Shown here: positions 1 to 12,019 of the stretch, in pieces
Position numbering within the stretch: the stretch's first letter is position 1
Layout of the letters: each line of letters begins with the position of its first letter
Assembly (NCBI RefSeq): GCF_009914755.1
Contig: NC_060934.1
From: the human T2T-CHM13v2.0 reference genome, Homo sapiens
Direction: 5' to 3' (one strand)
Length of the DNA: 64,000 nucleotides
Position numbers and translations under genes: made by a program
Notes under the pieces: model-generated
Database searches by the model: none
What the model saw: the letters and a program-made list of their open reading frames with translations, nothing else
What the model was told of the DNA's origin: nothing

Positions 1-1422
1 AAAAGGTTAAGCGAGGGGAAGAAGCCGTGCTGTGCCAGAGAACCTTATCAACGTCGGCCTATCTAAGAGTCTGACGTACTCAGCGTTTGATTTGGTTTTC
101 AAATACAGGAAGGACAGCAGGATTAGAACTAGAAATGTCTGGGAAGAAAAAGAAAAGGCAATTCACAAGAAGCAATAATGCCCATTGCTTCAGATTGGGT
201 CATTCACATGTGTTATGAAGAAAACAGAAAATTTGTTTTCTCTCTTTTTTATTTTTTGCTAGTGCAATTTCACATTTAATTTATATGGCTTTATTCATTC
301 TTCATTTATTTCATTTGCCATATTTTTTGGTGCCAGCAGGGAGACTTTGTTCTGTTTTCCACAATGGTTGTATGGGACTATTTTTATAATTCATATTTTC
401 TTGTTTCCCTTACAGGGTTGTTTAAAAAAAAAAAAAAAAACAGAAAATAGTAGTTCTGATTCCAATCTGTCTAAGCCAAACAGTTTAACAAGGGATGATT
501 TTTCCTCATAGTGTGACCTTTACTCCTTTATTTTTTAAAATTTCAGTTACCTGCAAAATGAAGCTAAAAATGATTGCCAAGATCTCTTCCAGCTCTTAAA
601 ATGCAAGACTCTAAAAATCAGTTTCCAAAGGTATTTAGAAATGACTTAGACAAGATATCTGGAATATGGAAATAAGGGAGATACGGAAAGCAGAATCGCT
701 AAAAGGATTATGTGTTGCATTATCAAACGTAGCACTCCTTTTTTGGAAATTTCTCTGATGGAATAACAAAAATCATTATTACCAAGGTCGTACTGAGAGG
801 CATCAATAGCTTTAGTAATTTTGATGTAGTTGGTGCTGTCATTACTAACTTGTTAAAATTAAATACAATTTTTGTTAATGTTTTCCTTTATTTTAGTTTT
901 AAAACAAATGTATCCTCAACTCCAGCATAGCAAAGCAGTGCATATTCTAGATCTGAATTGAAATAACCAGTTTATCTTTTCAAACAGACACTTAGGGGCA
1001 ATTTAATTCAATTAAGAATGAATTAATTCAACAAACTTTTATCATATGTCAACTTCTAGCATATGCTGGAAATAAAATATTCTGTCTTTCCTTAAGGTAT
1101 TTAAAATCTAGTAGGAGTTAGAATAAAAACAATTGCATGACTAAAAATGATTTAAAAATGCATTTAATTGTTATACATCTAATATACTGATGTTCAAAAT
1201 AACCCTGCAAAGCATCACGATTATTCTGTTTTACACAAGAAAACATTGAGTTCAGTGAGGTTAGGTGGCTTGTCCAAAGCCAAACAGGCTGGCAATGTCA
1301 GGGCTTCACTTTGAGTTCAGATCTCTCTACACTGCACCCTATCTATAACACTAGGTAATACATTATTATTTTTATAGGAGAGATATAAAATGGAGTTCAG
1401 AGATGTGGTAAAGATCAGTGCT

Positions 1423-1702
1423 GGCCAGGTGTGGTGGCTCACACCTGTAATCCCAACACTTGGGAGCCGAGGCAGGCGGATCACTTGAGGTCAGGAGTTC
1501 AAGACCAGCCTGACTAACATGGTGAAGCCCCATCTCTACAAAAAATTAATGGGGTGTGGTGGTTTATGCCTGTAGTTCCAGCTACTCAGGAGGCTGAGGC
1601 ACAAGAATCACTTGACCCTGGGAGGCCAGAGCTTGCAGTGAGCTGAGATCACCTGGTCAATCAAGTGAAACTCCATCTCAAAAATAAAAATAAATAAAAA
1701 TA
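1423..1702 (+). mobile_element. Alu (older S/J-type) with small 3' internal deletion
   Basis: GGCCAGGTGTGGTGGCTCACACCTGTAATCCC start, dimeric structure, (A5T)n tail; degenerate TSD atcagtgct/atcggtgct. Confidence 0.9.
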
Positions 1703-1928
1703 AATCGGTGCTGAAAACATTTTAAGGAGGAATGTAGTTGACTTTAAGAAGCTATGTAAATCGGCCGGGTGCGGTGGCTCATGCCTGTAATCCCAGCACT
1801 TTCGGAGGCCGAGGCGGGTGGATCTCGAGGTCAGGAGATTGAGACCATCCTGGCTAACATGGTGAAACCCCGTCCCTACTAAAAAAATACACACACACAC
1901 ACAAAAATGAGCCAGGCGTGGTGGCGGG

Positions 1929-2280
1929 TTTCACTCGAGTCCATGTGAAGAGACCACCAAACAGGCTTTGTGTGAGCAACATGGCTGTTTATTTCACCTG
2001 GGTGCAGGCGGGCTGAGTCCGAAAAGAGAGTCAGCGAAGGGAGATAAGGGTGGGGCCGTTTTATAGGATTTGGGTAGGTAAAGGAAAATTACAGTCAAAG
2101 GGGGTTTGTTCTCTGGTGGGTAGGAGTGGGGGTCACAAGGTGCTCAGTGGGGGTGCTTTCTGAGCCAGGATGAGCCAGGAAAAGGACTTTCACAAGGTAA
2201 TGTCATCAGTTAAGGCAAGGACCGGCCATTTACACTTCTTTTGTGGTGGAACGTCATCAGTTAAGGTGGCGCAGGGCATA
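1929..2280 (-). promoter_or_regulatory. 3' LTR7, truncated (distal U3 and PPT deleted); retains TATA and polyA signal
   Basis: Matches 7409-7790 with about 10 substitutions, then joins internal sequence at 2281; CCTATAAAACGG near 2056-2067 and AATAAA near 1988-1993 on minus. Confidence 0.92.
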
Positions 2281-2331
2281 AGCTGCTTCAAGCGGGATTA
2301 GGGGCGGCATGGGAACCTAGAGTGGGAGAAA

Positions 2332-2544
2332 TTAAGCTGAAAGGAGATCTTGTGGTAAGGGATGATATTGTGGGGTTGTTAGAAGAAACATTTGTTGTAT
2401 AGAATGATTGGTGATGGCCTGGATATGGTTGTGTATGAACTGAAAAACTAAATGGAATAAGAAGGAGAAAAACAGGTATAAAAGGTCTAAGAATTGGGAG
2501 GACCTAGGACATCTGATTAGAGAGTGCCTAAGGAGATTCAGCAT
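2332..2544 (-). pseudogene. env: HERV-H env remnant (TM cytoplasmic tail)
   Basis: C-terminus QFIHNHIQAITNHSIQQMFLLTTPQYHPLPQDLLSA resembles the HERV-H Env tail; most of env is deleted. Confidence 0.75.
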
Positions 2545-2899
2545 AGTCCTGCCAGCAAAGATTATTTATTTACTTCAAGGGTTAAGAGTGGCGGTTTGGG
2601 GATAGCACGAGGAGATATCAGCTGTGACGGCTTGGAGAAACAGTGTAAACCGGCAGTGTAAACAAGAACAGGGCATGTATGAGTAGTTGAGAACAGAGGA
2701 GTAGGACTAGACAGAAAATAGTAGGGATGACAAGTTTTTTTGTGGGCACAGTCTAAGTTGGTCCGGTGTCTGGAATGAGACTGGGGCCTAATAAAAAGGA
2801 CCAACTATACAGGAGCTTAAATGGGCTGTACCTTGTAGCATTCCGAGGACAGGCCTGAATTCTGAGAAGGGAAAGTGATAAAAGTATTGTCCAGTCCTT

Positions 2900-4960
2900 T
2901 TTGGTGGCTGAGCTTGGTGAGGTGTGTTTTTAAAAGACCTTCAGTCCATTCTACCTTTCTTGAAGATGGAGGACTGTAAGGGATATAAAGGTTTCACTGA
3001 ATACTAAGAGCCTGAAAAACTGCTTGGCTGATTTGACTAATAAAGGCTCATCTGTTATCAGACTGTATTGAGGTGGGAAGACTAAACTGAGGAATTATGT
3101 CTGACAGAACGGAAGAAATGACTGCGGTGGCCTTCTCAGACCCTGTAGGAAAGGCCTCTACCTATCCAGTGAAAGTATCTACCTAGACTAAGAGGTATTT
3201 TAGTTATCTGACTTCAGGGCATGTTGAGTAAAGCTAATTTGCCAGTCCTGGGTGGGGCAAATCCTCGAGCTTGATGTGTAGGGAAGGGAGGGGGCCTGAA
3301 TAATCCCTGAGGAGTAGTAGAATAGCAGATGGAACACTAAGTTATTTCCTTGAGGATAGATTTCCACGATGGAAAGGAAATGAGAGGTTCTGAGAGGCGG
3401 GCTAGTGGCTTGTACTATAGCACAGCCTGCCTTTGCTGGTATGTGGCGATTAGGCCTGGTGGAACTGCCATCAATAAATCAAGCGTGATCAGGGTGAGGA
3501 ACAGGAAAGAAGGAAATATGGGGAAATGGGGTGAATATCAGGTGGATCAGAGAGATACAGTCGTGGGGGTCAGTTGTGGTATCAGGAATAATGTGGGAGG
3601 CTGGATTGAAGTCTGGGCCAGGAACAATGGTAATTGTGGGAGACTCAACAAAGAGTGAGTACAGCTGAAGGAGCCGGGAAGCAGAAAGTATATGCGTCAG
3701 GTATGAGGAAGAAAATAGATTTTGGAAGTTATGAGAACTGTAGAGAGTGAGTTGAGCATAGTTTGTGATTTTTAGGGCCTCTAAAAGTATTGAAGCAGCG
3801 GCAGCCGCTGCATGCAGACATGAGGGCTAGGCTAAAACAGTAAGGTCAAGTTGTTTGGACAGAAAGGCTACAGGGTGTGGTCCTGGCTCTTGTGTAAGAA
3901 TTCTGACCACGCTAACCATGCCTAGGAAGGAAAGGAGTTGTTGTTTTGTAGAAGGTGCTTGGGTTTGAGAGATCAGTCGGACACGATTGGCAGGGAGAGC
4001 ACATGTGTTTTTATGAGAATTATGCTGAGATAGGTAACAGTTGAGGAAGAAATTTGGGCTTGATTCAAGTAATGGGGGCTGTCTGTGAAGCTTTGCGGCA
4101 GTACAGCCTAGGTAATTTGCTGAGCTTGATGGGTGTCAGGGTCAGTCCAAGTGAAAGCGAAGAAAGGCTGGGATTAAGGGTGCAAAGGAATAGTAAAGAA
4201 AGCATGTTTGAGATCTAGAACAGAATAATGGGTTGTAGAGGCAGGTATTAAGGATAGGAGAGTATATGGGTTTGGCACCACAGGGTGGATAGGCAAAACA
4301 ATTTGGTTGATAAGGCGCAGATCCTGAACTAACTTGTAAGGCTTGTCTGGTTTTAGGACAGGTGAAATGGGGGAATTGTAAGGAGAGTTTATAGGCTTTA
4401 AAAGGCCATGCTGTAGCAGGCGAGTGATAACAGGCTTTAATCTTTTTAAAGTGTGCTGTGGGATGGGATATTGGCGTTGAGTGGGGTAAGAGTGATTAGG
4501 TTTTAATGAGATGGTAAGGGGTGCATGATTGGCCGCCAAGGAGGGAGTAGAGGTGTCTTATACTTGTGGGTTAAGGTGGGGGGATACAAGAGGATGATGC
4601 AAAGGAGGCTTTGGATTGGGAAGAAGAGCGGCAATGAGATATAGCTGTAGTCCAGGAATAGTCAGGGAAGCAGATAATTTAGTTAAAGTGTCTCAGCCTA
4701 ATAAGGGAACTGGGCAGGTGGGGATAACTAAAAAGGAGTGCTTAAAAGAGTATTGTCTAAGTTGGCACCAGAGTTGGGGAGTTTTAAGAGGTTTAGAAGC
4801 CTGGCCGTCAATACCCACAACAGTTATGGAGGCAAGGGAAACAGGCCCTGGAAAAGAAGGTAATGTGGAGTGAGTAGCCTCCGTATTGATTAAGAAGGGG
4901 ACAGGCTTACCTTCCTCTGTGAGAGTTACCCGAAGCTTGCCATCCGTGATGGTCTAGGGG
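2900..4960 (-). pseudogene. pol: HERV-H pro/pol remnants (RT N-terminus open at 4174-4539); boundaries approximate
   Basis: ORF has QYPIP...SPYNSPISPVLKPDKPYKLVQDLRLINQIV...YSVLDLKHAFFTIPLHP, typical gammaretroviral RT motifs; flanked by stops and deletions. Confidence 0.85.
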
Positions 4961-5452
4961 GCTTCCGAGGTGATCGGGCAGTGTCAGTCTTCAGCCGGTA
5001 AGCCAAGAAGGAGTCAGAGAGCCTAGGGCCAGAGTTCCAGGAGCTCTGGGAGTGGCTGCCAGGTGAGTTGAACAGTCCGATTTTCAGTGGGGTCCCACAC
5101 AGATGGGACGCGGCTTAGGAGGAATCCCGGGCTGCGGGCGTTCCTTGGCCCAGTGGCCAGATTTCCGGCATGTGTAGCAAGTTCCTGGGGGAGGAGGTTC
5201 TGGAGGAATGCCTGACTGCTACAGTTCAGGCGTTTGGAAGTTCTTGTGTGCTGGAGATGTGGCTGGGGTTTGTCTCACAGTGGAGGTAAGGAATTGCAAC
5301 TTTTTTCTGTTATTGCACACCTTGAAGGTGAGGTTAATTAAGTCCTGTTGTGGGGTTTGAGGGCCAGATTCCAGTTTTTGGAGTTTTATTTAATGTCGGG
5401 AGCAGACTGGGTAATAAAATGTATATTGAGAATAAGACGGCCTTTTGACCTT

Positions 5453-6661
5453 TTAGGGGCTAGGACTGTAAAGTGTCTCAGGGTTGCTGTCAAACGAGCC
5501 AGCCAGGAGTCGAACCTGAGTGGATTGGGTGATAAAATGCATATTAAGAATAAGGTGGCCTTCTGGCCCCTCTGGGTCTAGGGCGGTATAGCGTCTAAAG
5601 GTTGCTGCTAAGCAGGCCATGAACTGGGCTGGATTTTCATCTTTACCTTGGGTGGTTTCTTTAAGTTTGTTGTAATTAACAGCTTTGTAAGCTGCTTTTT
5701 TAAGCCCTTCAACTAGGCAGGAAACCATGTAATCTTGCCTAGCTATACCTGGGGAATTTGCCTGGTAGTTCCATTGGGGATCCTTTTGGGGAACTGCTCT
5801 AATGCCTTCCTGGAGGTCTGGCTCATGAAGCCGGCAGTTATCAGCATGAGATTGGGCTAGAGAAAAAACTCTTTCCCGTTCATCTGGGGAGAGGGTAGAA
5901 GTCAGGATGACACTTAAGTCACTCCAGGTTAAGTTGTAGGACAGAGTTAGATATTGGAATTCCTGTATATATTTAGTGCGGTCTGATGAGAAAGAGCCTT
6001 AACGTTGACTGATCTGAGAGAGGTCTGATAGAGAAAAAGGTACATGTACCCTGACTATGCCTTCAGCTCCAGCCACCTCTCTAAGAGGAAATTGTTGGGC
6101 AGGTGGGGAGGAGCTAGTCGCGGAACTAAACTGTAAGCCGGACCGGGTGTGAGGAGGGGGGGTGGTAGAAGGATTATAAGGTGGAGGAGCGGAGGCTGAG
6201 GAAGAATTGGGACTTAGCTTGGCCTGGCGACGAGCAGCCTGGGGAGGAGGGGAGAGGTCAGATGGGTCTGTAGAAAAGGAAGACTGGAAAGACTCAGCGA
6301 CGCTTGGGGTTGGGACTGAGGGGACAGGCGGGAGGGAAAGAAGGAGGATTTGGGAGGAATCGCATTGGGAACAGAGGCTAGGGAGGGAACAAAGTGTGAA
6401 AAATGCCTGGACGTAAGGCACCTCAGACCATTTGCCCATTTTTCGACAAAAATTATTTAGGTCTTGTAGGATGGAGAAATCGAAAGTGCCGTTTTCTGGC
6501 CATTTAGAGCCATTGTCGAGTTTGTACTGGGGCCAAGTGGTGTTGCAGAAGAAAATAAGGCATTTAGGTTTTAGGTCAGGTGTGAGTTGAAGAGGTTTTA
6601 AGTTCTTAAGGACACAGGCTAAAGGAGAAGAAGGAGGAATGGAGGGTGGAAGGTTGCCCAT
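5453..6661 (-). pseudogene. gag: HERV-H gag (MA-CA), one in-frame TAA at 5999-6001
   Basis: MGNLPPSIPPSSPLACVLKNL start, PPPY late-domain motif, MHR-like TTQGKDENPAQF; ORFs 5999-6703 and 5453-5728 share a frame and manual translation of 5729-5998 has no stop. Confidence 0.9.
5495..5518 (-). other. Captured 24-nt fragment of tRNA-Arg(ACG) 3' end inside gag
   Basis: Minus strand reads CAGGTTCGACTCCTGGCTGGCTCG (T-arm and acceptor 3' strand), as I recall human tRNA-Arg-ACG ending ...ATTCCAGGTTCGACTCCTGGCTGGCTCG. Confidence 0.8.
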
Positions 6662-7544
6662 AGTGAAGGAGACAAACCCTGAGAAAAGAGAGCGTAGAGA
6701 CATGGAGGAGGGGAGTGGGGTTCTTGCCCTCCAGAAAAGCAGAGAGGGGGTTGGGACACGGAAATAAGGGATTGGGGCACAGAGATAAGAGGTCAGGGTG
6801 CAGAAATAAGGGATTGGGGCACAGAGATAAGAGGTTGGGGTGTGGAAATAAGCAATTGGGGGGTTCTTGCCCCCTAGGAAAGCGGGACTTGCCGCTAAGG
6901 GTGAAGGAGAAGGGGTTGAGGGGTACTTGCCCCTGCCCCAGGAAAGCGGGACTTGCCGCTAAGGGTGAAGGACCAAGGCAGGTGTCCCTGCATGGTCTGA
7001 CACCCTTGAAAGGTGAGTGTATAATCAGAGAGGCGTCCCTGCAATGATTAAACACCAAGGGAAGGCTGCATTCCCAGTCTGTGACCTGCGCTGGAGTTTT
7101 GAGTTCATGGATAAAACATGTCTCTTTTGTCTCTGCCAGAAAATGAAAGGAATTGAAATTAAGAGAAGGGAGAGATTGAAGTGTGGCGCCAAGATTGAAA
7201 GGAGAAAGAGGTTGAGGGATAGTGAGGGAGGTTGGAGAAGAGAGTAAAAAGAGGCCGCTTACCAGATTTGAAATTGGTGAGATGTTTCTTGGGCTGGTCG
7301 GTCTGAGGACCTGAGGTCGTAGGTGGATCTTTCTCATGGAGCAAAGAGCAGGAGGACAGGGGATTGATCTCCCAAGGGAGGTCCCCCGATCCGAGTCATG
7401 GCACCAAATTTCACTCGAGTCCATGTGAAGAGACCACCAAACAGGCTTTGTGTGAGCAACATGGCTGTTTATTTCACCTGGGTGCAGGCGGGCTGAGTCT
7501 GAAAAGAGAGTCAGCGAAGGGAGATAAGGGTGGGGCTGTTTCAT
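6606..7544 (-). CDS. 312-codon LTR7/leader ORF similar to the putative ESRG (HESRG) protein; translation unproven
   Basis: TLFSDSARLHPGEINS.VAHTKPVWWSLH...GTSLGRSIPCPPALCS...LNPFSFTLSGKSRF closely resembles the ESRG ORF as I recall it, but is not identical. Confidence 0.4.
   Translation of the reverse strand: MKQPHPYLPSLTLFSDSARLHPGEINSHVAHTKPVWWSLHMDSSEIWCHDSDRGTSLGRSIPCPPALCSMRKIHLRPQVLRPTSPRNISPISNLVSGLFLLSSPTSLTIPQPLSPFNLGATLQSLPSLNFNSFHFLAETKETCFIHELKTPAQVTDWECSLPLVFNHCRDASLIIHSPFKGVRPCRDTCLGPSPLAASPAFLGQGQVPLNPFSFTLSGKSRFPRGQEPPNCLFPHPNLLSLCPNPLFLHPDLLSLCPNPLFPCPNPLSAFLEGKNPTPLLHVSTLSFLRVCLLHYGQPSTLHSSFFSFSLCP
6760..6972. repeat. HERV-H leader tandem repeats
   Basis: About 42-bp GAAATAAGGGATTGGGGCACAGAGATAAGAGG units, plus two copies of CTTGCCCC...AGGAAAGCGGGACTTGCCGCTAAGGGTGAAGGA. 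Confidence 0.8.
7257..7265 (-). promoter_or_regulatory. HERV-H major splice donor
   Basis: CTG|GTAAGC on minus, ~125 nt downstream of the PBS, where the HERV-H leader donor is expected. Confidence 0.7.
7389..7406 (-). other. Primer binding site, tRNA-His
   Basis: TGGTGCCATGACTCGGAT directly after the LTR; 17/18 match to the tRNA-His complement TGGTGCCGTGACTCGGAT. Confidence 0.93.
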
Positions 7545-7892
7545 AGGATTTGGGTAGGTAAACGAAAATTACAGTCAAAGGGGGTTTGTTCTCTGGTGGG
7601 TAGGAGTGGGGGTCGCAAGGTGCTCAGTGGGCAGGAGTGGGGGTCGCAAGGTGCTCAGTGGGGGTGCTTTTTGAGCCAGGATGAGCCAGGAAAAGGACTT
7701 TCACAAGGTAATATCATCAGTTAAGGCAAGGACCGGCCATTTACACTTCTTTTGTGGTGGAATGTCATCAGTTAAGGTGGGGTAGGGCATATTCACTTAT
7801 TTTGTGATTCTTTAGTTACTTCAGGCCATCTTGGCGTATATGTGCAGGTCACAGGGGATGCGATGGCTTGGCTTGGGCTCAGAGGCCTGACA
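7409..7892 (-). promoter_or_regulatory. 5' LTR7 (484 bp)
   Basis: Complete TGTCAGG...GTGAAA; two copies of a 31-bp U3 repeat; ACAAAAGA SOX-like motif at 7748-7755; TATA box altered to TATGAAA. Confidence 0.95.
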
Positions 7893-8502
7893 GCGGGCAC
7901 CTGTAGTCTCAGCTACTGTAGTCTCAGCTACTCGGGAGGCAGAGGCAGGAGAATGGCATGAACCCAGGAGGCGGAGCTTGCAGGGAGCCCAGATTGCACC
8001 CCTGCACTCCAGCCTGGGAGACAGAGTGAGACTGTCTAAAAACCAAACAAAAAACAAGAAGGAATGTAAGTCAATTTTTACTTCTGAGTACCCTCAGGCA
8101 AAGCCCTCCCATAGCACCCAGGTCGTCCACTTGCTACTACTTATCACACTTGTAATTATGTTTTAAGTTCCTTCCCCACTAGAGTGTAAGTCCTAGGGGG
8201 GCAAGAAGCAGTAATGTGCTAGTAAATGTTTAACAACCAGCTGTCCAGGTTTGCTGTCTCTTCAGTTTGCTGTCTCCTGAAAGTACCAACATGCCGGCTA
8301 CAGGCTGGTAAAATTCCTGCAAATAACAATAGATTCTTGCAAGCCAAGTAGGCATCCTGTGGCAGCAAAGGGCTGGCAGGGACCATGTTAGTTATCACTG
8401 TAAAATCTCCAGCACTGGCACTTGGTAGATGCTCAACATTTCTGTTGAATGAATGGCTATTCTTTTCAAGTTGAAGTTTCTAGAAATTCATGTTTCCTTT
8501 GT

Positions 8503-9919
8503 TGAGACGAAGCGGGGGCCCCTCTTAGGGGCCTGTGGGCCCTCCATCCCAATCATGGAAATAAAGGGAAATCTTGAATTCTTTCAAGGGAAATTCTGGA
8601 CACCTAGCTAGGCCTGAGAAGTAGATGAGCAACTTCCTAAGCGAGAAGGTAATGAAGCTGCCTCATTGTCTGGGGTGACACCCAAGGTTTGTTGTCTCAT
8701 GGCTACAGAGATCAAGGACACAGACACACAAAGAGTGAGGTTAAGAACAGAAGTTTAATGGGTGAAAGAAAGCGAATAGCTCTCTGCTGGAGACTGGGGG
8801 GTCCCAGAAAAATGGATTGCCAATCTGCAGTGAAAGGCAGAGGATTTTATAGATGAGCTGGCAGGAGGTGGTGTCTGATCTACATAGGGCATGAAAAACT
8901 GGTTAGGACCAGGTGTGCCATTTGCATAGGGCATGAATCTCTGGCAGCCCCCACCCCAGGCTTTTATTATGCAGGCAGGTTTTCAGCCTGAGCTGCGCCA
9001 TGTTGCCCATTTCTTTCTTACTGTACACATGCTAACAAAAAAGGGAAGATGGAGCTCCCAGGGTAGACATGCCTGGCCCCTAGGTACCCCTTTTCTGTTG
9101 GCACAGCTGCTGGCATTCCCCCATGCAAGCTTCCAGCTTTTTTATCAATGTTTGCAGCTCAATCTTTCAGGCTCCTCTTTGTTAGAAAAGAAATGTTTTT
9201 GGGAGCTGCTCTTTGTTAGAAGGGAAGTTCTGCCGAGGACTCTTTTGCCCTATCTGACTAAATAATTTCTATCTCCTATATCAGTAATAGTATACTAAAA
9301 CAACAGTTAAGGAAGTTAGAGTTACTGGATGTCTGATTCCCTATAGGAACTAAAGATAACATATTAATATATGTCCCTGAGTTGTTCTTCAGAAACCTGG
9401 ACCCCCAGCAAATAGATCTGCCAGCACATAGACCTCAGATAAGGGGGAACTAAGGACTGAACTCCAACTGTCCTTCTTTGTTCTAAATTTCTTCCTGAGG
9501 GGCCTGGAGGAAGTCATGTCCACAAGCCAGAGCTCACATTCTTTTCTGATGCCTCCAATCTTTTAGACAAAGCTTCCTTTCCTTAACCAATTGCAAATTG
9601 AAAACCACCTATGACCTGTAAGCCCCCTGCTTCAAGATATCCTACTCTTTCAGGCCAAACCAATGTGTAACCTTAATGTATTGATTTACACTTTTGCCTC
9701 TCACTGATTTCCTGCTTTCCTGAAAATTTCCACTTCCTTTAAACATGCTTGTTTGCAAGCCATTGAGGAGATTGGGTCTGAAGTGTAAGCTGCCCTATTC
9801 TTGATTCTCCTTGCTTAGTGCTTTGCAAAGAAATGTCTCCTTTTCAAACTGCACCATCTCAATGTGGATGTTTGGCCTTATTACACCAGATAAGCAGAAC
9901 TCAGTTCGGTTTCTCAACA
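8503..9919 (+). mobile_element. ERV1 solo LTR (MER39-like), interrupted by a second LTR
   Basis: TG...CA ends, 4-bp TSD TTGT (8499-8502 / 9920-9923); CCCCTCTTAGGGGCCTG...TTCAAGGGAAATTC motif; family assigned from recall. Confidence 0.7.
8653..9283 (-). mobile_element. ERV1 (MER4-group) solo LTR nested in the MER39-like LTR
   Basis: TG...CA ends with exact 4-bp TSD GTAA (8649-8652 / 9284-9287); subfamily uncertain. Confidence 0.75.
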
Positions 9920-10986
9920 TTGTGATCTTGTAATTGGTCAGGAAATTGTACTCCGTATCTTCTCGATGCTAACAGTCTGGGGCTGGGGAAAGCTGCAAAG
10001 GAACGCAGGGAGTTACAAGTCCTCTCCAGGAGCTCATCGTCACAACCTCATTTACACAGTTGTTGCCCAAACACTCACCATTGTGTATGATCTTCTCAGG
10101 AAATATGGCTGAGAGGGGATGAGTAAAATACAGCTATGCTTTATGTCCTTCAGGAAAAAGCTAACATGCTGTATTTATTAGGGCTTAGTCATTGCAAATG
10201 ATAATGTTTGATTTACTACTCTTAAATTTCATTGACTCAGCCAGCATAGTTCCAAAGAACTTAGCAAGGATCTTGGTTGGAGACTCTACCACCCTCTCTT
10301 CATATTTAGTATGTAGAGGATTAGAAAAAATGACATAAGACACCCAAGACAGCAGCCAGAGCACTGCCTACTATTGATTACTTACAATCATTATTATTGT
10401 CCTCATTACTGTCATCAGCATATGCGCCCATCTCCTCCATTGGATTATGAGGCTCTAGGGGAAAAAAAACTGTGACGATTTATCTGTGTGTTCTCTCATA
10501 TGCTTTTTCCATGTGGTTCCCACAATAAGCCCCCATATTAAACATATTTTCTCATGAAATGTATCTCCTCATAGTAAATTGACTGTACTGTGTCATCAAG
10601 GCAAATGGCCTCACACTGTTTAGGAAATAGCCAACAACATCAACATTTAGGTATCTGATTGTTATAAGTGCATTTAACTGTGATTTATATGTCCTACAGC
10701 TTTATAGTTAAAATGGGAGGTCCTACAAACAGCCATACCCTGGGCTTTACTCTAAAAATTCTCAGCTACTTTTTCTCACTTCGCAAGTCATATTTCTCCT
10801 CCTTGTTCAGAATAGGGACTACAAAGCCAGACTGTCTCAGTGAAAGTCCTGGTTCTGCCTTGGTCAACTTATTTAACCTCTCTGTGTCTCTGTTTTCTTA
10901 TTGGTAAAATGAGAGAAATAATTATATCTACTTCCTCGGGCTATTGTGAAGATTAAATGTTGTGATGTATACAAAGTGCTAACACA

Positions 10987-11301
10987 GGCTGGGCTCAGTG
11001 GCTCATGCCTGTAATCTCAGAAATTTGGGAGGCTGAGGCAGGAAGATTGCTTGAGCCCAGGGGTTCGAGACCAGCCTGGGAAATATAGTGAAATTCCATC
11101 TGTATTAAAAAAAAAATATATATATATATATAAGAATTAGTTGGGCTTGGTGGCATATGCCTGTAGTCCCAGCTACTTGGGGGACTGAGGTGGGAGGATT
11201 GCTCGAGCCCAGGAGGTAGAGGCTACAGTAAGTCTACATTGCACCACTGCACTCCAGCCTGGGTTACAAAGTGAGACCTTGTCTCAAAAAAACAAACAAA
11301 A
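10987..11301 (+). mobile_element. AluJ-type with (TA)n in the middle linker, adjacent to a MIR
   Basis: Alu dimer with GATTGCTTGAGCCCAG J-type positions. Confidence 0.85.
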
Positions 11302-12019
11302 ACCACTCCCCTCCCATCTTAAAATTTTTTGAGATATGATTGATTTATTACCTGGACGTGTCTTAGCTTTTGTGTATATTTGTGATCTTCCATGTTAGGC
11401 TATATACATCCTATTTAACCAACGTTTGATGTCTGTTAAAGGCTTGTGGGTTTTAGCTGGAAAAAGTCACTGTCCTTCTGTAAAATGTTATTTGAAATAT
11501 ATCTGGACTTTGGTAGCACAGGTCATGCTTGAAAATGAAGATCTTTACGTCCTTTAGAATTAACTCTAAAAGGTGTTTTATAATGCTTGAAGTGCAAATG
11601 ATCTATCAAGACAGATAAAAATACATCGCACAGATAGATGGCATCTTTTGAGAATGTGTTACTTACTATAGCTGTCACCCAGCCTCATTTGCTATGGTCG
11701 ATGGGGACATTCTCTGAGTAGATACATAAATGAAACGGATCAAATGAGACATTTCACACTGAAAAAGTGTGTTGTAGTGAAATGAGAGTGGCCTGGAAGT
11801 CAGACTGGAATCCTCATCTTGACTGCTATTAAACGTTGTGTGATCTTGTGCAAGGCTTTTCACCTCTGTGGGGGGTTGTCTTCTTCATCCATAAAAGATG
11901 ATGATTTGATGAGACAGTTTGTGAAGTCTTTCTAGTTTTATGATGCGATCCTATTCAACATCATCATCAGCCTCAGAAATACCTGGATTTAATGAAACCA
12001 GGAAGGCAGGACAAACTGA

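What the first reader, a model, noticed from the sequence alone, without database searches (positions are those of the whole stretch)
5495..5518. tRNA-Arg(ACG) 3' fragment captured at a recombination junction inside HERV-H gag
Seen: the minus (viral sense) strand reads CAGGTTCGACTCCTGGCTGGCTCG exactly between two diverged copies of the same gag segment. Recalled knowledge: this is the last 24 nt before CCA of human tRNA-Arg-ACG, whereas HERV-H primes with tRNA-His. Its last 7 nt (TGGCTCG) also fit the gag sequence there (ttcATGGCTCGttt), giving microhomology. Inference: during minus-strand synthesis RT jumped from one viral RNA onto a co-packaged non-primer tRNA, read through the T-loop including the normally blocking m1A58 position, then landed on a second HERV-H RNA. 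The tRNA would have acted as a bridging template.
Basis: partly seen in the sequence, partly recalled or inferred. Interest (0 to 1): 0.85.

Follow-up and report, generated by a model that had tools for sequence, protein, structure and literature searches.

The report
tRNA-Arg patch joining two HERV-H genomes
A single ancient HERV-H provirus carries, at the exact point where its gag switches from one HERV-H subtype to another, a 24-base copy of the 3' end of tRNA-Arg(ACG): a fossil of reverse transcriptase hopping across a host tRNA between two co-packaged viral RNAs.

Summary
Window 5518..5495 (minus strand) equals the last 24 nt (positions 50-73) of the tRNA-Arg(ACG) genes. The exact 24-mer occurs at 4 places in the assembly, and the other 3 are tRNA genes. 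It lies between two 101-nt versions of one gag (capsid, p30) segment. In a tree, the upstream version groups with fuller-gag HERV-H copies and the downstream version with the common gag-deleted type (100/100 support each). Subtype identity switches once, at the insert. None of the 58 comparison copies has the insert. The junctions overlap by 7 nt (TGGCTCG) and 1 nt (C). The provirus is one integration: a 5-bp target duplication inside one Alu, LTRs 97% alike, and a His-type primer site (17/18). The tRNA is in viral sense, which fits copying of an RNA template during minus-strand synthesis. This matches "patch repair" with a tertiary template, known from experimental retroviruses. I found no report of a germline HERV-H case with a tRNA. 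Whether m1A58 was read through, or the template lacked it (nascent pre-tRNA or a fragment), is open. The mechanism is known; this is a new example of moderate interest.

The parts
1929..7892 (-). HERV-H provirus of 5,964 bp in minus orientation, a chimera of two HERV-H subtypes
   Evidence: LTR pair; LTR start at 7892 and end at 1929; hundreds of genomic relatives
7409..7892 (-). 5' LTR, complete; it overlaps the RefSeq 'enhancer 7418-7962' of the hub table
   Evidence: aligned to the 3' LTR with 342 of 352 positions identical and one 31-nt indel
1929..2280 (-). 3' LTR, lacking about the first 100 nt of U3 that the 5' LTR has at 7792-7892
   Evidence: other copies stop matching the internal flank at about 2282, so this is a later local deletion
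7893..7897 (.). Target-site duplication, copy next to the 5' LTR (GCGGG on the + strand)
1924..1928 (.). Target-site duplication, copy next to the 3' LTR (GCGGG on the + strand)
   Evidence: flanks minus one copy align collinearly to a full Alu (237 of 310 identical) across the join
7389..7406 (-). Primer-binding site, His type
   Evidence: 17 of 18 match the reverse complement of the tRNA-His-GTG 3' end plus CCA; 10 mismatches to an Arg-ACG site
5645..5983 (-). Gag stretch present here and in type-A copies but absent from all 29 type-B copies examined
   Evidence: subject coordinates jump from window 5984 to 5644; no type-B alignment of 100 nt or more for the four windows spanning 6000-5551
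5519..5619 (-). Copy A of the duplicated 101-nt capsid segment, type-A lineage; the Pfam Gag_p30 match ends at 5519
   Evidence: (inside the A clade, 100/100)
5495..5518 (-). tRNA-Arg(ACG) positions 50-73 in viral sense. 5502-5517 can come only from the tRNA. 5518 (C) is shared with type-A gag. 5495-5501 (TGGCTCG) is shared with type-B gag.
5401..5501 (-). Copy B of the duplicated segment, type-B lineage; from here to at least about 4000 and again at 2281-2520 the provirus is type-B-like
   Evidence: (inside the B clade, 100/100)
5453..6958 (-). Two stop-free frames that hold gag, 6958..5999 (its first ~100 codons lie upstream of the gag start; weak Gag_MA match) and 5998..5453 (Gag_p30). The frame runs through the tRNA patch and is out of register with copy B.

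Best explanation
The junction is a scar of non-homologous retroviral recombination made during the round of reverse transcription that produced this provirus. One HERV-H particle held two different HERV-H RNAs: the common gag-deleted type (here 'type B') and a type with a fuller gag ('type A'). It also held a host tRNA-Arg(ACG) or its precursor. Minus-strand DNA synthesis ran 3' to 5' along the type-B RNA as far as the heptamer TGGCTCG in the capsid-coding region. The 3' end of the nascent DNA then paired with the identical heptamer at positions 67-73 of the tRNA. RT copied the tRNA back to position 50/51. With only 1 nt of overlap (C) it then moved to the type-A RNA, 101 nt downstream of the homologous point, and continued to the 5' end. 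The result is type-A 5' part, a 101-nt repeat, a 24-nt tRNA patch, then type-B 3' part. Both LTRs were made as usual, and integrase inserted the DNA into an Alu. Shown here: the identity of the patch, the two parental lineages, the single switch point, the microhomologies, the single integration, and the uniqueness in this assembly. Inferred: co-packaging, the order of the jumps, and the nature of the tRNA template (mature, nascent or cleaved). The patch has no evident function, and gag is out of frame across it.
For: (1) Patch identity: the 24 of 24 match ends flush with the last base of the tRNA-Arg(acg) genes. The 16 nt that neither viral parent can supply occur at 9 places in the genome: 7 tRNA-Arg(acg) genes, this site, and one unrelated place. 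(2) Two parents: upstream of the patch (5800-5518) the window is 86-95% identical to the 29 type-A copies. Downstream (5501-4000) it is 91-96.5% identical to the 29 type-B copies. Against the wrong type the values are 72-86% and 79.5-83.6%. Sliding windows show a single switch at the patch. All 29 type-B copies lack window ~5645-5983. In a 101-column tree of 60 rows, copy A sits in the A clade and copy B in the B clade, each 100/100, with about 0.19 changes per site between the clades. (3) Microhomology of 7 nt and 1 nt. (4) Formed before integration: identical 5-bp repeats abut both LTR ends, and the flanks rejoin into one Alu. The LTRs have 342 of 352 positions identical. (5) Polarity: the tRNA is in sense on the viral plus strand, as expected if an RNA was copied into minus-strand DNA. 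(6) Not the primer: the PBS is His type. [quoted passage not shown] It also says non-primer tRNAs and pre-tRNAs are enriched in virions.
Against: Nothing observed contradicts it, but several links are inference. No other primate genome or second human haplotype could be examined, so formation before integration rests on the TSD, the LTR likeness and parsimony. The two comparison panels were chosen by likeness to one side or the other of the junction, which inflates same-side identity. The informative signals are the poor fit on the opposite side and the tree. Upstream of about 6050 the two types are too alike to exclude further crossovers. Retroviral RT normally halts one base before m1A58 (PMC8599865, passages), yet the copy runs 8 nt past position 58 with A58 read correctly. 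This needs either rare read-through or an unmethylated template. The second jump has only 1 nt of overlap. The key experimental paper (Duggal et al. 2007) could not be read.
Confidence: 0.8

Rival explanations
1. Same recombination, but the reader's sub-claim is wrong: RT did not read through m1A58. The template was a tRNA-Arg(ACG) species lacking that methyl group, either a nascent pre-tRNA still carrying its 3' trailer or a cleaved 3' fragment whose 5' end lay near position 50.
For: A58 (window 5510) is copied faithfully. M-MLV RT halts one base before m1A58, and the halt is relieved when the methylation is absent (PMC8599865, passages). MLV virions are enriched for pre-tRNAs with leaders and trailers, and also hold cleaved tRNA halves (PMC4378196; PMC4931115; PMC4997597). 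No CCA was copied. The six bases after the patch (TTTGAC) match the trailer of one of the three exact-match genes (L001) at 5 of 6 positions, and the one mismatch lies in a CpG. 25 of 29 type-B copies read TTTGGC there. A template end near position 50 would also explain the nearly homology-free second jump.
Against: The trailer hint rests on one base. 1 of 29 type-B copies also reads TTTGAC and 2 read TTCGGC, so an ordinary substitution explains it nearly as well. The lack of CCA is also expected if pairing started at positions 67-73 of a mature tRNA. Whether pre-tRNAs lack m1A58 was not examined here. No source read names tRNA-Arg among packaged species.
Confidence: 0.4
2. Post-integration DNA events: a resident type-A (or type-B) provirus suffered a break repaired with filler DNA from a tRNA gene or tRNA cDNA, together with long gene conversion from an ectopic HERV-H copy of the other type.
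For: Ectopic recombination between HERV copies is documented in general (titles and abstracts listed, e.g. PMC4195946). No other species or haplotype could be checked here.
Against: It needs several coincident events: a conversion tract of more than 3 kb ending exactly at a 24-nt filler, plus a 101-nt overlap. Simple crossover between two proviruses is excluded by the matching 5-bp repeats, the single rejoined Alu and LTRs 97% alike. The sense polarity and the flush tRNA 3' end with 7-nt overlap are what RT copying predicts.
Confidence: 0.07
3. The tRNA acted as a primer, not a template. A CCA-less tRNA-Arg paired through TGGCTCG with type-B minus-strand DNA and primed plus-strand synthesis, and part of the RNA primer was later copied into DNA.
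For: The geometry at the downstream junction (tRNA sense strand joined by its 3' end to downstream viral sequence, with 7 nt of pairing) is also that of a primer.
Against: It does not explain the switch to a second viral lineage or the 101-nt repeat without extra template jumps. Mature tRNA ends in CCA, which would be unpaired there. It still needs copying past position 58.
Confidence: 0.04
4. Chance resemblance or assembly artefact.
For: None found.
Against: The exact 24-mer occurs only in tRNA-Arg(acg) genes and here; the reversed control gives 0 matches. About 2e-5 matches are expected by chance. The surrounding sequence is a coherent provirus with TSD.
Confidence: 0.01

Closest known systems
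Tertiary-template 'patch repair' insertions at non-homologous retroviral recombination junctions (MLV, SNV and HIV-1 experimental systems). Read as described in the review PMC4997597; its references to Duggal et al. 2007, Mikkelsen and Pedersen 2000, and Zhang and Temin 1993 were not read.
   Same: Two viral templates are joined through a short stretch copied from a third, host-derived RNA. Short fortuitous microhomology sits at the junctions. The event occurs during reverse transcription in a particle that packaged host RNAs.
   Different: This is a natural event fixed in the primate germline in HERV-H, not a selected laboratory recombinant. The patch is a non-primer tRNA 3' end copied past position 58. 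The two viral parents are distinct endogenous subtypes.
7SL RNA patched into an experimental avian retroviral recombinant (Hajjar and Linial 1993, as cited in PMC4997597)
   Same: An abundant packaged pol III transcript served as recombination substrate.
   Different: A different host RNA and virus; that recombinant arose under selection in culture. The original paper was not read.
L1-made chimeric retrocopies (U6, tRNA or other small RNA fused to L1 or mRNA 3' parts). Recalled; only the listing of PMC4476161 was seen.
   Same: RT switches from one template onto the 3' end of a small pol III RNA.
   Different: Those have poly(A) tails and L1-type target duplications and no LTRs. This element has two LTRs, a PBS and a 5-bp duplication.
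Retroviral primer-binding site, or plus-strand strong-stop copy of the primer tRNA
   Same: A tRNA 3'-end sequence inside a provirus.
   Different: A PBS is the reverse complement of the last 18 nt including CCA and lies next to U5. This stretch is in sense, lacks CCA, is 24 nt long, lies in gag, and derives from Arg rather than the His primer.
Recombinant HERV-H forms (type Ia LTRs, mosaic HERVs; PMC6629862 passages; PMC4724089 title and abstract)
   Same: Exchange between HERV-H subtypes is already known.
   Different: The passages and listings seen mention no host-RNA patch or duplication marking the crossover.

Membership tests
HERV-H provirus | Primer-binding site complementary to the 3' end of tRNA-His | tested here: met
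   17 of 18 against the tRNA-His-GTG 3' end plus CCA taken from genes found in the same genome. That HERV-H is defined by a His PBS: PMC6629862 passage.
HERV-H provirus | Paired LTRs flanked by a short target-site duplication | tested here: met
   LTRs 342 of 352 identical; 5-bp repeat; flanks rejoin into one Alu.
HERV-H provirus | Gammaretrovirus-type gag, with membership in the large genomic family | tested here: met
   Pfam Gag_p30 E=1.4e-19. 39 non-self matches were scored for each of three probes, out of 1058-1142 first-look candidates.
tRNA-Arg(ACG) gene or pseudogene | Cloverleaf with anticodon arm | tested here: not met
   ARAGORN finds 0 genes in window 1-12000 and Rfam finds no tRNA hit. 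Only positions 50-73 are present.
Tertiary-template patch at a retroviral recombination junction | The sequences either side derive from two different viral templates | tested here: met
Tertiary-template patch at a retroviral recombination junction | The insert is templated by a third RNA known to be packaged | tested here: met
   Sequence identity to tRNA-Arg(acg). Packaging of non-primer tRNAs and pre-tRNAs is shown for MLV and HIV-1 only, not for HERV-H.
Tertiary-template patch at a retroviral recombination junction | Microhomology at the junctions | tested here: met
   7 nt and 1 nt.
Tertiary-template patch at a retroviral recombination junction | Formed during reverse transcription, before integration | tested here: inconclusive
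   Supported by the TSD, the rejoined Alu, the LTR likeness and the polarity. No orthologous or empty allele could be examined.
L1-mediated chimeric retrocopy | Poly(A) tail, long L1-type target duplication, no LTRs | tested here: not met
   Two LTRs, a PBS and a 5-bp repeat.
Primer-binding site for tRNA-Arg | Reverse complement of the tRNA 3' end including CCA, next to U5 | tested here: not met
   Sense orientation in the viral strand, followed by TTT and not CCA, about 1.9 kb from U5.

The most novel reading that the evidence does not exclude
The patch was copied from a nascent, unmethylated pre-tRNA-Arg(ACG), or from a cleaved 3' fragment, that a HERV-H particle had packaged with two different HERV-H genomes. 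It would then be a germline fossil of three things at once: co-packaging of gag-deleted and fuller HERV-H RNAs (trans-mobilisation of the defective majority), packaging of immature pol III transcripts by an extinct primate gammaretrovirus-like virus, and patch repair in nature. It would suggest that junction patches across all ERVs could be mined as a record of ancient virion RNA content.
Probability: 0.25. Interest if true: 0.6.

Novelty: new member of a known kind. Interest (0 to 1): 0.45.

Why it matters
The junction records one reverse-transcription event from millions of years ago. It shows that two HERV-H subtypes and a non-primer host tRNA were in the same reverse-transcription complex. 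This bears on how the defective, gag-deleted majority of HERV-H copies were mobilised: by being packaged alongside other genomes. It also gives a natural counterpart to the laboratory phenomenon of tertiary-template patch repair. The copy runs past tRNA position 58, so it also bears on which tRNA forms (modified, nascent or cleaved) serve as templates inside particles. It has no evident effect on the host, occurs once in this assembly, and the mechanism is already established, so its value is as an example and as the seed for a systematic survey.

Tried and rejected
1. A tRNA gene or pseudogene at the site: ARAGORN and Rfam find nothing.
2. An amplified sublineage carrying the junction: the 221-nt junction probe gives only the window itself full-length. 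The other 39 scored matches stop at the patch (40 scored of 1058 candidates). The 24-mer with up to 3 mismatches adds only tRNA genes and one unrelated place.
3. A local tandem duplication followed by divergence: rejected by the tree.
4. Crossover between two proviruses at different loci: rejected by the TSD and the rejoined Alu.
5. An Arg-type primer site: rejected.
6. The pre-tRNA trailer hint: followed to the counts and found weak.
7. L089, which shares the 16-mer: no tRNA by ARAGORN; not pursued.
9. Duggal et al. 2007 is not held.
10. PMC4905674 gave nothing on HERV-H subtypes.
11. Literature searches: no listed title or abstract, and none of the passages read from six of the listed papers, describes a tRNA-derived patch in HERV-H. 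The library lacks most subscription journals, so older virology papers may hold one.
12. After no more genomic loci could be cut out, so the 3' LTR deletion was not mapped in other copies.

Full report
**Observation.**
On the minus strand, window 5518..5495 reads CAGGTTCGACTCCTGGCTGGCTCG. An exact search of the window's own assembly (3.1 Gb, 24 contigs) finds this 24-mer at 4 places; the reversed-pattern control finds 0. The three places outside the window are each the last 24 bases of a 73-nt tRNA-Arg(acg) gene called by ARAGORN (genes at locus positions 1452-1524; matches at 1501-1524). The stretch is therefore tRNA positions 50-73, ending at the discriminator base just before where CCA is added.

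With up to 3 mismatches there are 9 places. Four more are tRNA-Arg(acg) genes that carry T at the first position. One is a 3-mismatch hit that has no tRNA and no likeness to the provirus. In the window itself ARAGORN finds no tRNA gene and Rfam finds nothing at the site. It is a fragment.

**The element around it.**
Direct repeats at 1929-2280 and 7409-7791 are the LTRs of a minus-strand provirus.
- The 5' LTR starts at 7892 and the 3' LTR ends at 1929.
- The aligned LTR parts have 342 of 352 positions identical. Six of the 10 differences lie in CpG context, and there is one 31-nt indel.
- Directly after the 5' LTR comes an 18-nt primer-binding site. It matches the reverse complement of the tRNA-His-GTG 3' end plus CCA at 17 of 18 positions, and an Arg-ACG site at only 8 of 18.
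- The tRNA-His genes came from the same genome (12 places; 5 of the 7 loci scanned hold tRNA-His-gtg at the match).
- The family is named for its His primer site (PMC6629862, passage).
- The stop-free frame 5998..5453 hits Pfam Gag_p30 (E=1.4e-19), and the match ends at window 5519, the last base before the tRNA-like stretch.
- Identical 5-bp repeats (GCGGG on the + strand) abut both LTR ends. The two flanks, with one repeat copy removed, align collinearly across the join to a full-length Alu elsewhere in the window, 237 of 310 identical.

This is therefore one integrase-type insertion into an Alu.

**Two parents.**
A 221-nt probe across the junction finds only the window itself at full length. 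The other 39 scored matches (40 scored of 1058 first-look candidates) stop at query position 115-124, the longest at window 5517-5518. A 345-nt probe from just downstream of the patch finds 39 other copies at 94-98% identity (40 scored of 1102 candidates).

I used the 29 best loci from each search as panels, 'type A' (L006-L034) and 'type B' (L041-L069).
- Type-A copies match window 5800-5518 at 86-95% but window 5501-5200 at only 72-86%. That second alignment re-starts about 100 nt further back in the subject.
- Type-B copies match 5501 to about 4000 at 91-96.5% and 5644-5523 at only 79.5-83.6%. All 29 lack window ~5645-5983.
- In 150-nt sliding windows, median identity to type A is 90-95% upstream, against 76-91% or no alignment for type B. 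Downstream it is 88-98% for type B against 74-92% for type A. There is one switch, at the patch.
- The 3' end of the internal region (2281-2520) again matches at 94-98%. By position, several of those hits lie in the same proviruses as type-B panel members.

The panels were picked by likeness to one side each. The informative signals are therefore the misfit on the other side, the shared deletion, and the tree.

For the tree I took the window's two 101-nt repeats (copy A 5619..5519 and copy B 5501..5401; 66 of 85 identical to each other) and the homologous segment of all 58 panel copies. No rows were dropped. Copy A falls inside the type-A clade and copy B inside the type-B clade, each split supported 100/100, with about 0.19 changes per site between the clades (101 columns, so only the deep split is resolved). 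The repeat is thus not a local tandem duplication that later diverged. Its two halves come from two lineages.

**Junction anatomy.**
- In all 29 type-A copies viral sequence continues after the point equivalent to 5519. 17 of 29 read CCACT|CCTGACAT, and the first base after the break is C in 29 of 29. Window base 5518 (C) is therefore shared by type-A gag and tRNA position 50.
- Type-B copies read ...TTCATGGCTCG|TTTGGCAGC. The heptamer TGGCTCG is intact in 14 of 29, and the other 15 differ by 1-2 bases. It equals tRNA positions 67-73.
- Only 5517-5502 (16 nt) can come from the tRNA alone. That 16-mer occurs at 9 places in the genome: the 7 tRNA-Arg(acg) genes, this site, and one unrelated place without a tRNA.
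- None of the 58 panel copies has the insert.

**Mechanism.**
The tRNA lies in sense on the viral plus strand. Only minus-strand synthesis copies RNA templates, so the simplest path runs as follows:
1. Minus-strand DNA is made on a type-B RNA up to the heptamer.
2. It transfers, through 7 nt of pairing, to positions 67-73 of a packaged tRNA-Arg(ACG).
3. The tRNA is copied back to position 50/51.
4. It transfers with 1 nt of overlap to a co-packaged type-A RNA, 101 nt downstream of the homologous point.

This gives exactly the observed order: type A, repeat, patch, type B. The TSD, the rejoined Alu and the similar LTRs place the event before integration.

The review PMC4997597 (passages) describes this class of event. 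[quoted passage not shown] 7SL has been patched into an experimental recombinant. Non-primer tRNAs and pre-tRNAs are enriched in virions. The primary paper on tertiary-template insertions in MLV (Duggal et al. 2007) is not held, so I cannot say whether tRNA patches were among its cases.

**The open step.**
M-MLV RT halts one base before m1A58 of its primer, and the halt is relieved when the methyl group is missing (PMC8599865, passages). Here the copy runs 8 nt beyond position 58, and A58 (window 5510) is read correctly. That fits an unmethylated template at least as well.

MLV and HIV-1 particles are enriched for pre-tRNAs with leaders and trailers and also contain cleaved tRNA halves (PMC4378196; PMC4931115). 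One base hints at a trailer. The window reads TTTGAC after the patch, and one of the three exact-match genes has TTCGAC as its trailer, whereas 25 of 29 type-B copies read TTTGGC. However, 1 of 29 also reads TTTGAC and 2 read TTCGGC, so this is weak. A template whose 5' end lay near position 50 would also explain the almost homology-free second jump. No source I read names tRNA-Arg among packaged species.

**Rivals.**
- Crossover between two proviruses is excluded by the TSD and the single Alu.
- Break repair with filler DNA plus a conversion tract of more than 3 kb ending exactly at the filler cannot be excluded without other genomes, but it needs several coincidences.
- A primer role for the tRNA fits the downstream junction only.
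- Chance is excluded by the counts above.

**Age and fate.**
The LTRs differ at 10 of 352 aligned positions. With neutral rates recalled from the literature (about 1-2.5e-9 per site per year) this suggests very roughly 6-14 million years. The estimate is crude, and gene conversion could bias it. The junction is unique in this assembly, so the recombinant left no other surviving copies. Gag is out of register across the patch. This is unremarkable for a family whose majority is defective.

**Novelty.**
The mechanism is known from experimental systems. Exchange between HERV-H subtypes is known too. Six literature searches listed nothing describing a tRNA-derived patch in HERV-H. That judgement rests on titles and abstracts of the listed papers and on the passages read, and the library lacks most subscription journals. 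I rate it a new member of a known kind, of moderate interest.

Noticed in passing
window 1929-2280 vs 7409-7892: The 3' LTR lacks about the first 100 nt of U3 that the 5' LTR has (7792-7892). Other HERV-H copies stop matching the adjoining internal sequence at about 2282. This looks like a post-integration deletion across the internal/U3 border.
   Followed up: partly
window 7632-7662: A 31-nt stretch is present in the 5' LTR only; it is the single indel between the two LTRs.
   Followed up: no
window 6741-6866: A 21-bp tandem repeat array lies in the leader upstream of the gag start. Copy number differs widely among HERV-H copies; L055, for example, has many units.
   Followed up: no
window 7901-7930: A 15-nt tandem duplication sits in the Alu flank next to the 5' LTR. 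It appears as an 11-nt extra stretch when the empty site is aligned to another Alu.
   Followed up: partly
window 7418-7962: The RefSeq 'enhancer' feature of the hub table coincides with the 5' LTR (7409-7892) plus some Alu flank.
   Followed up: no
L012, L021, L032 (type-A panel): These copies have type-A gag upstream but are 82-86% identical to the window downstream of the junction, against 72-77% for most type-A copies, and up to 92-98% in some 150-nt windows. They may be intermediate lineages or other recombinants.
   Followed up: no
L089 (G000:C12:47369404-47369419): This is the only non-tRNA, non-window place holding the 16-nt core of the patch. ARAGORN finds no tRNA there.
   Followed up: partly
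L075, L081: Two places match the tRNA-His 3'-end pattern with A in place of G in the T-loop motif, and ARAGORN calls no tRNA there. They are probably decayed tRNA-His pseudogenes.
   Followed up: no
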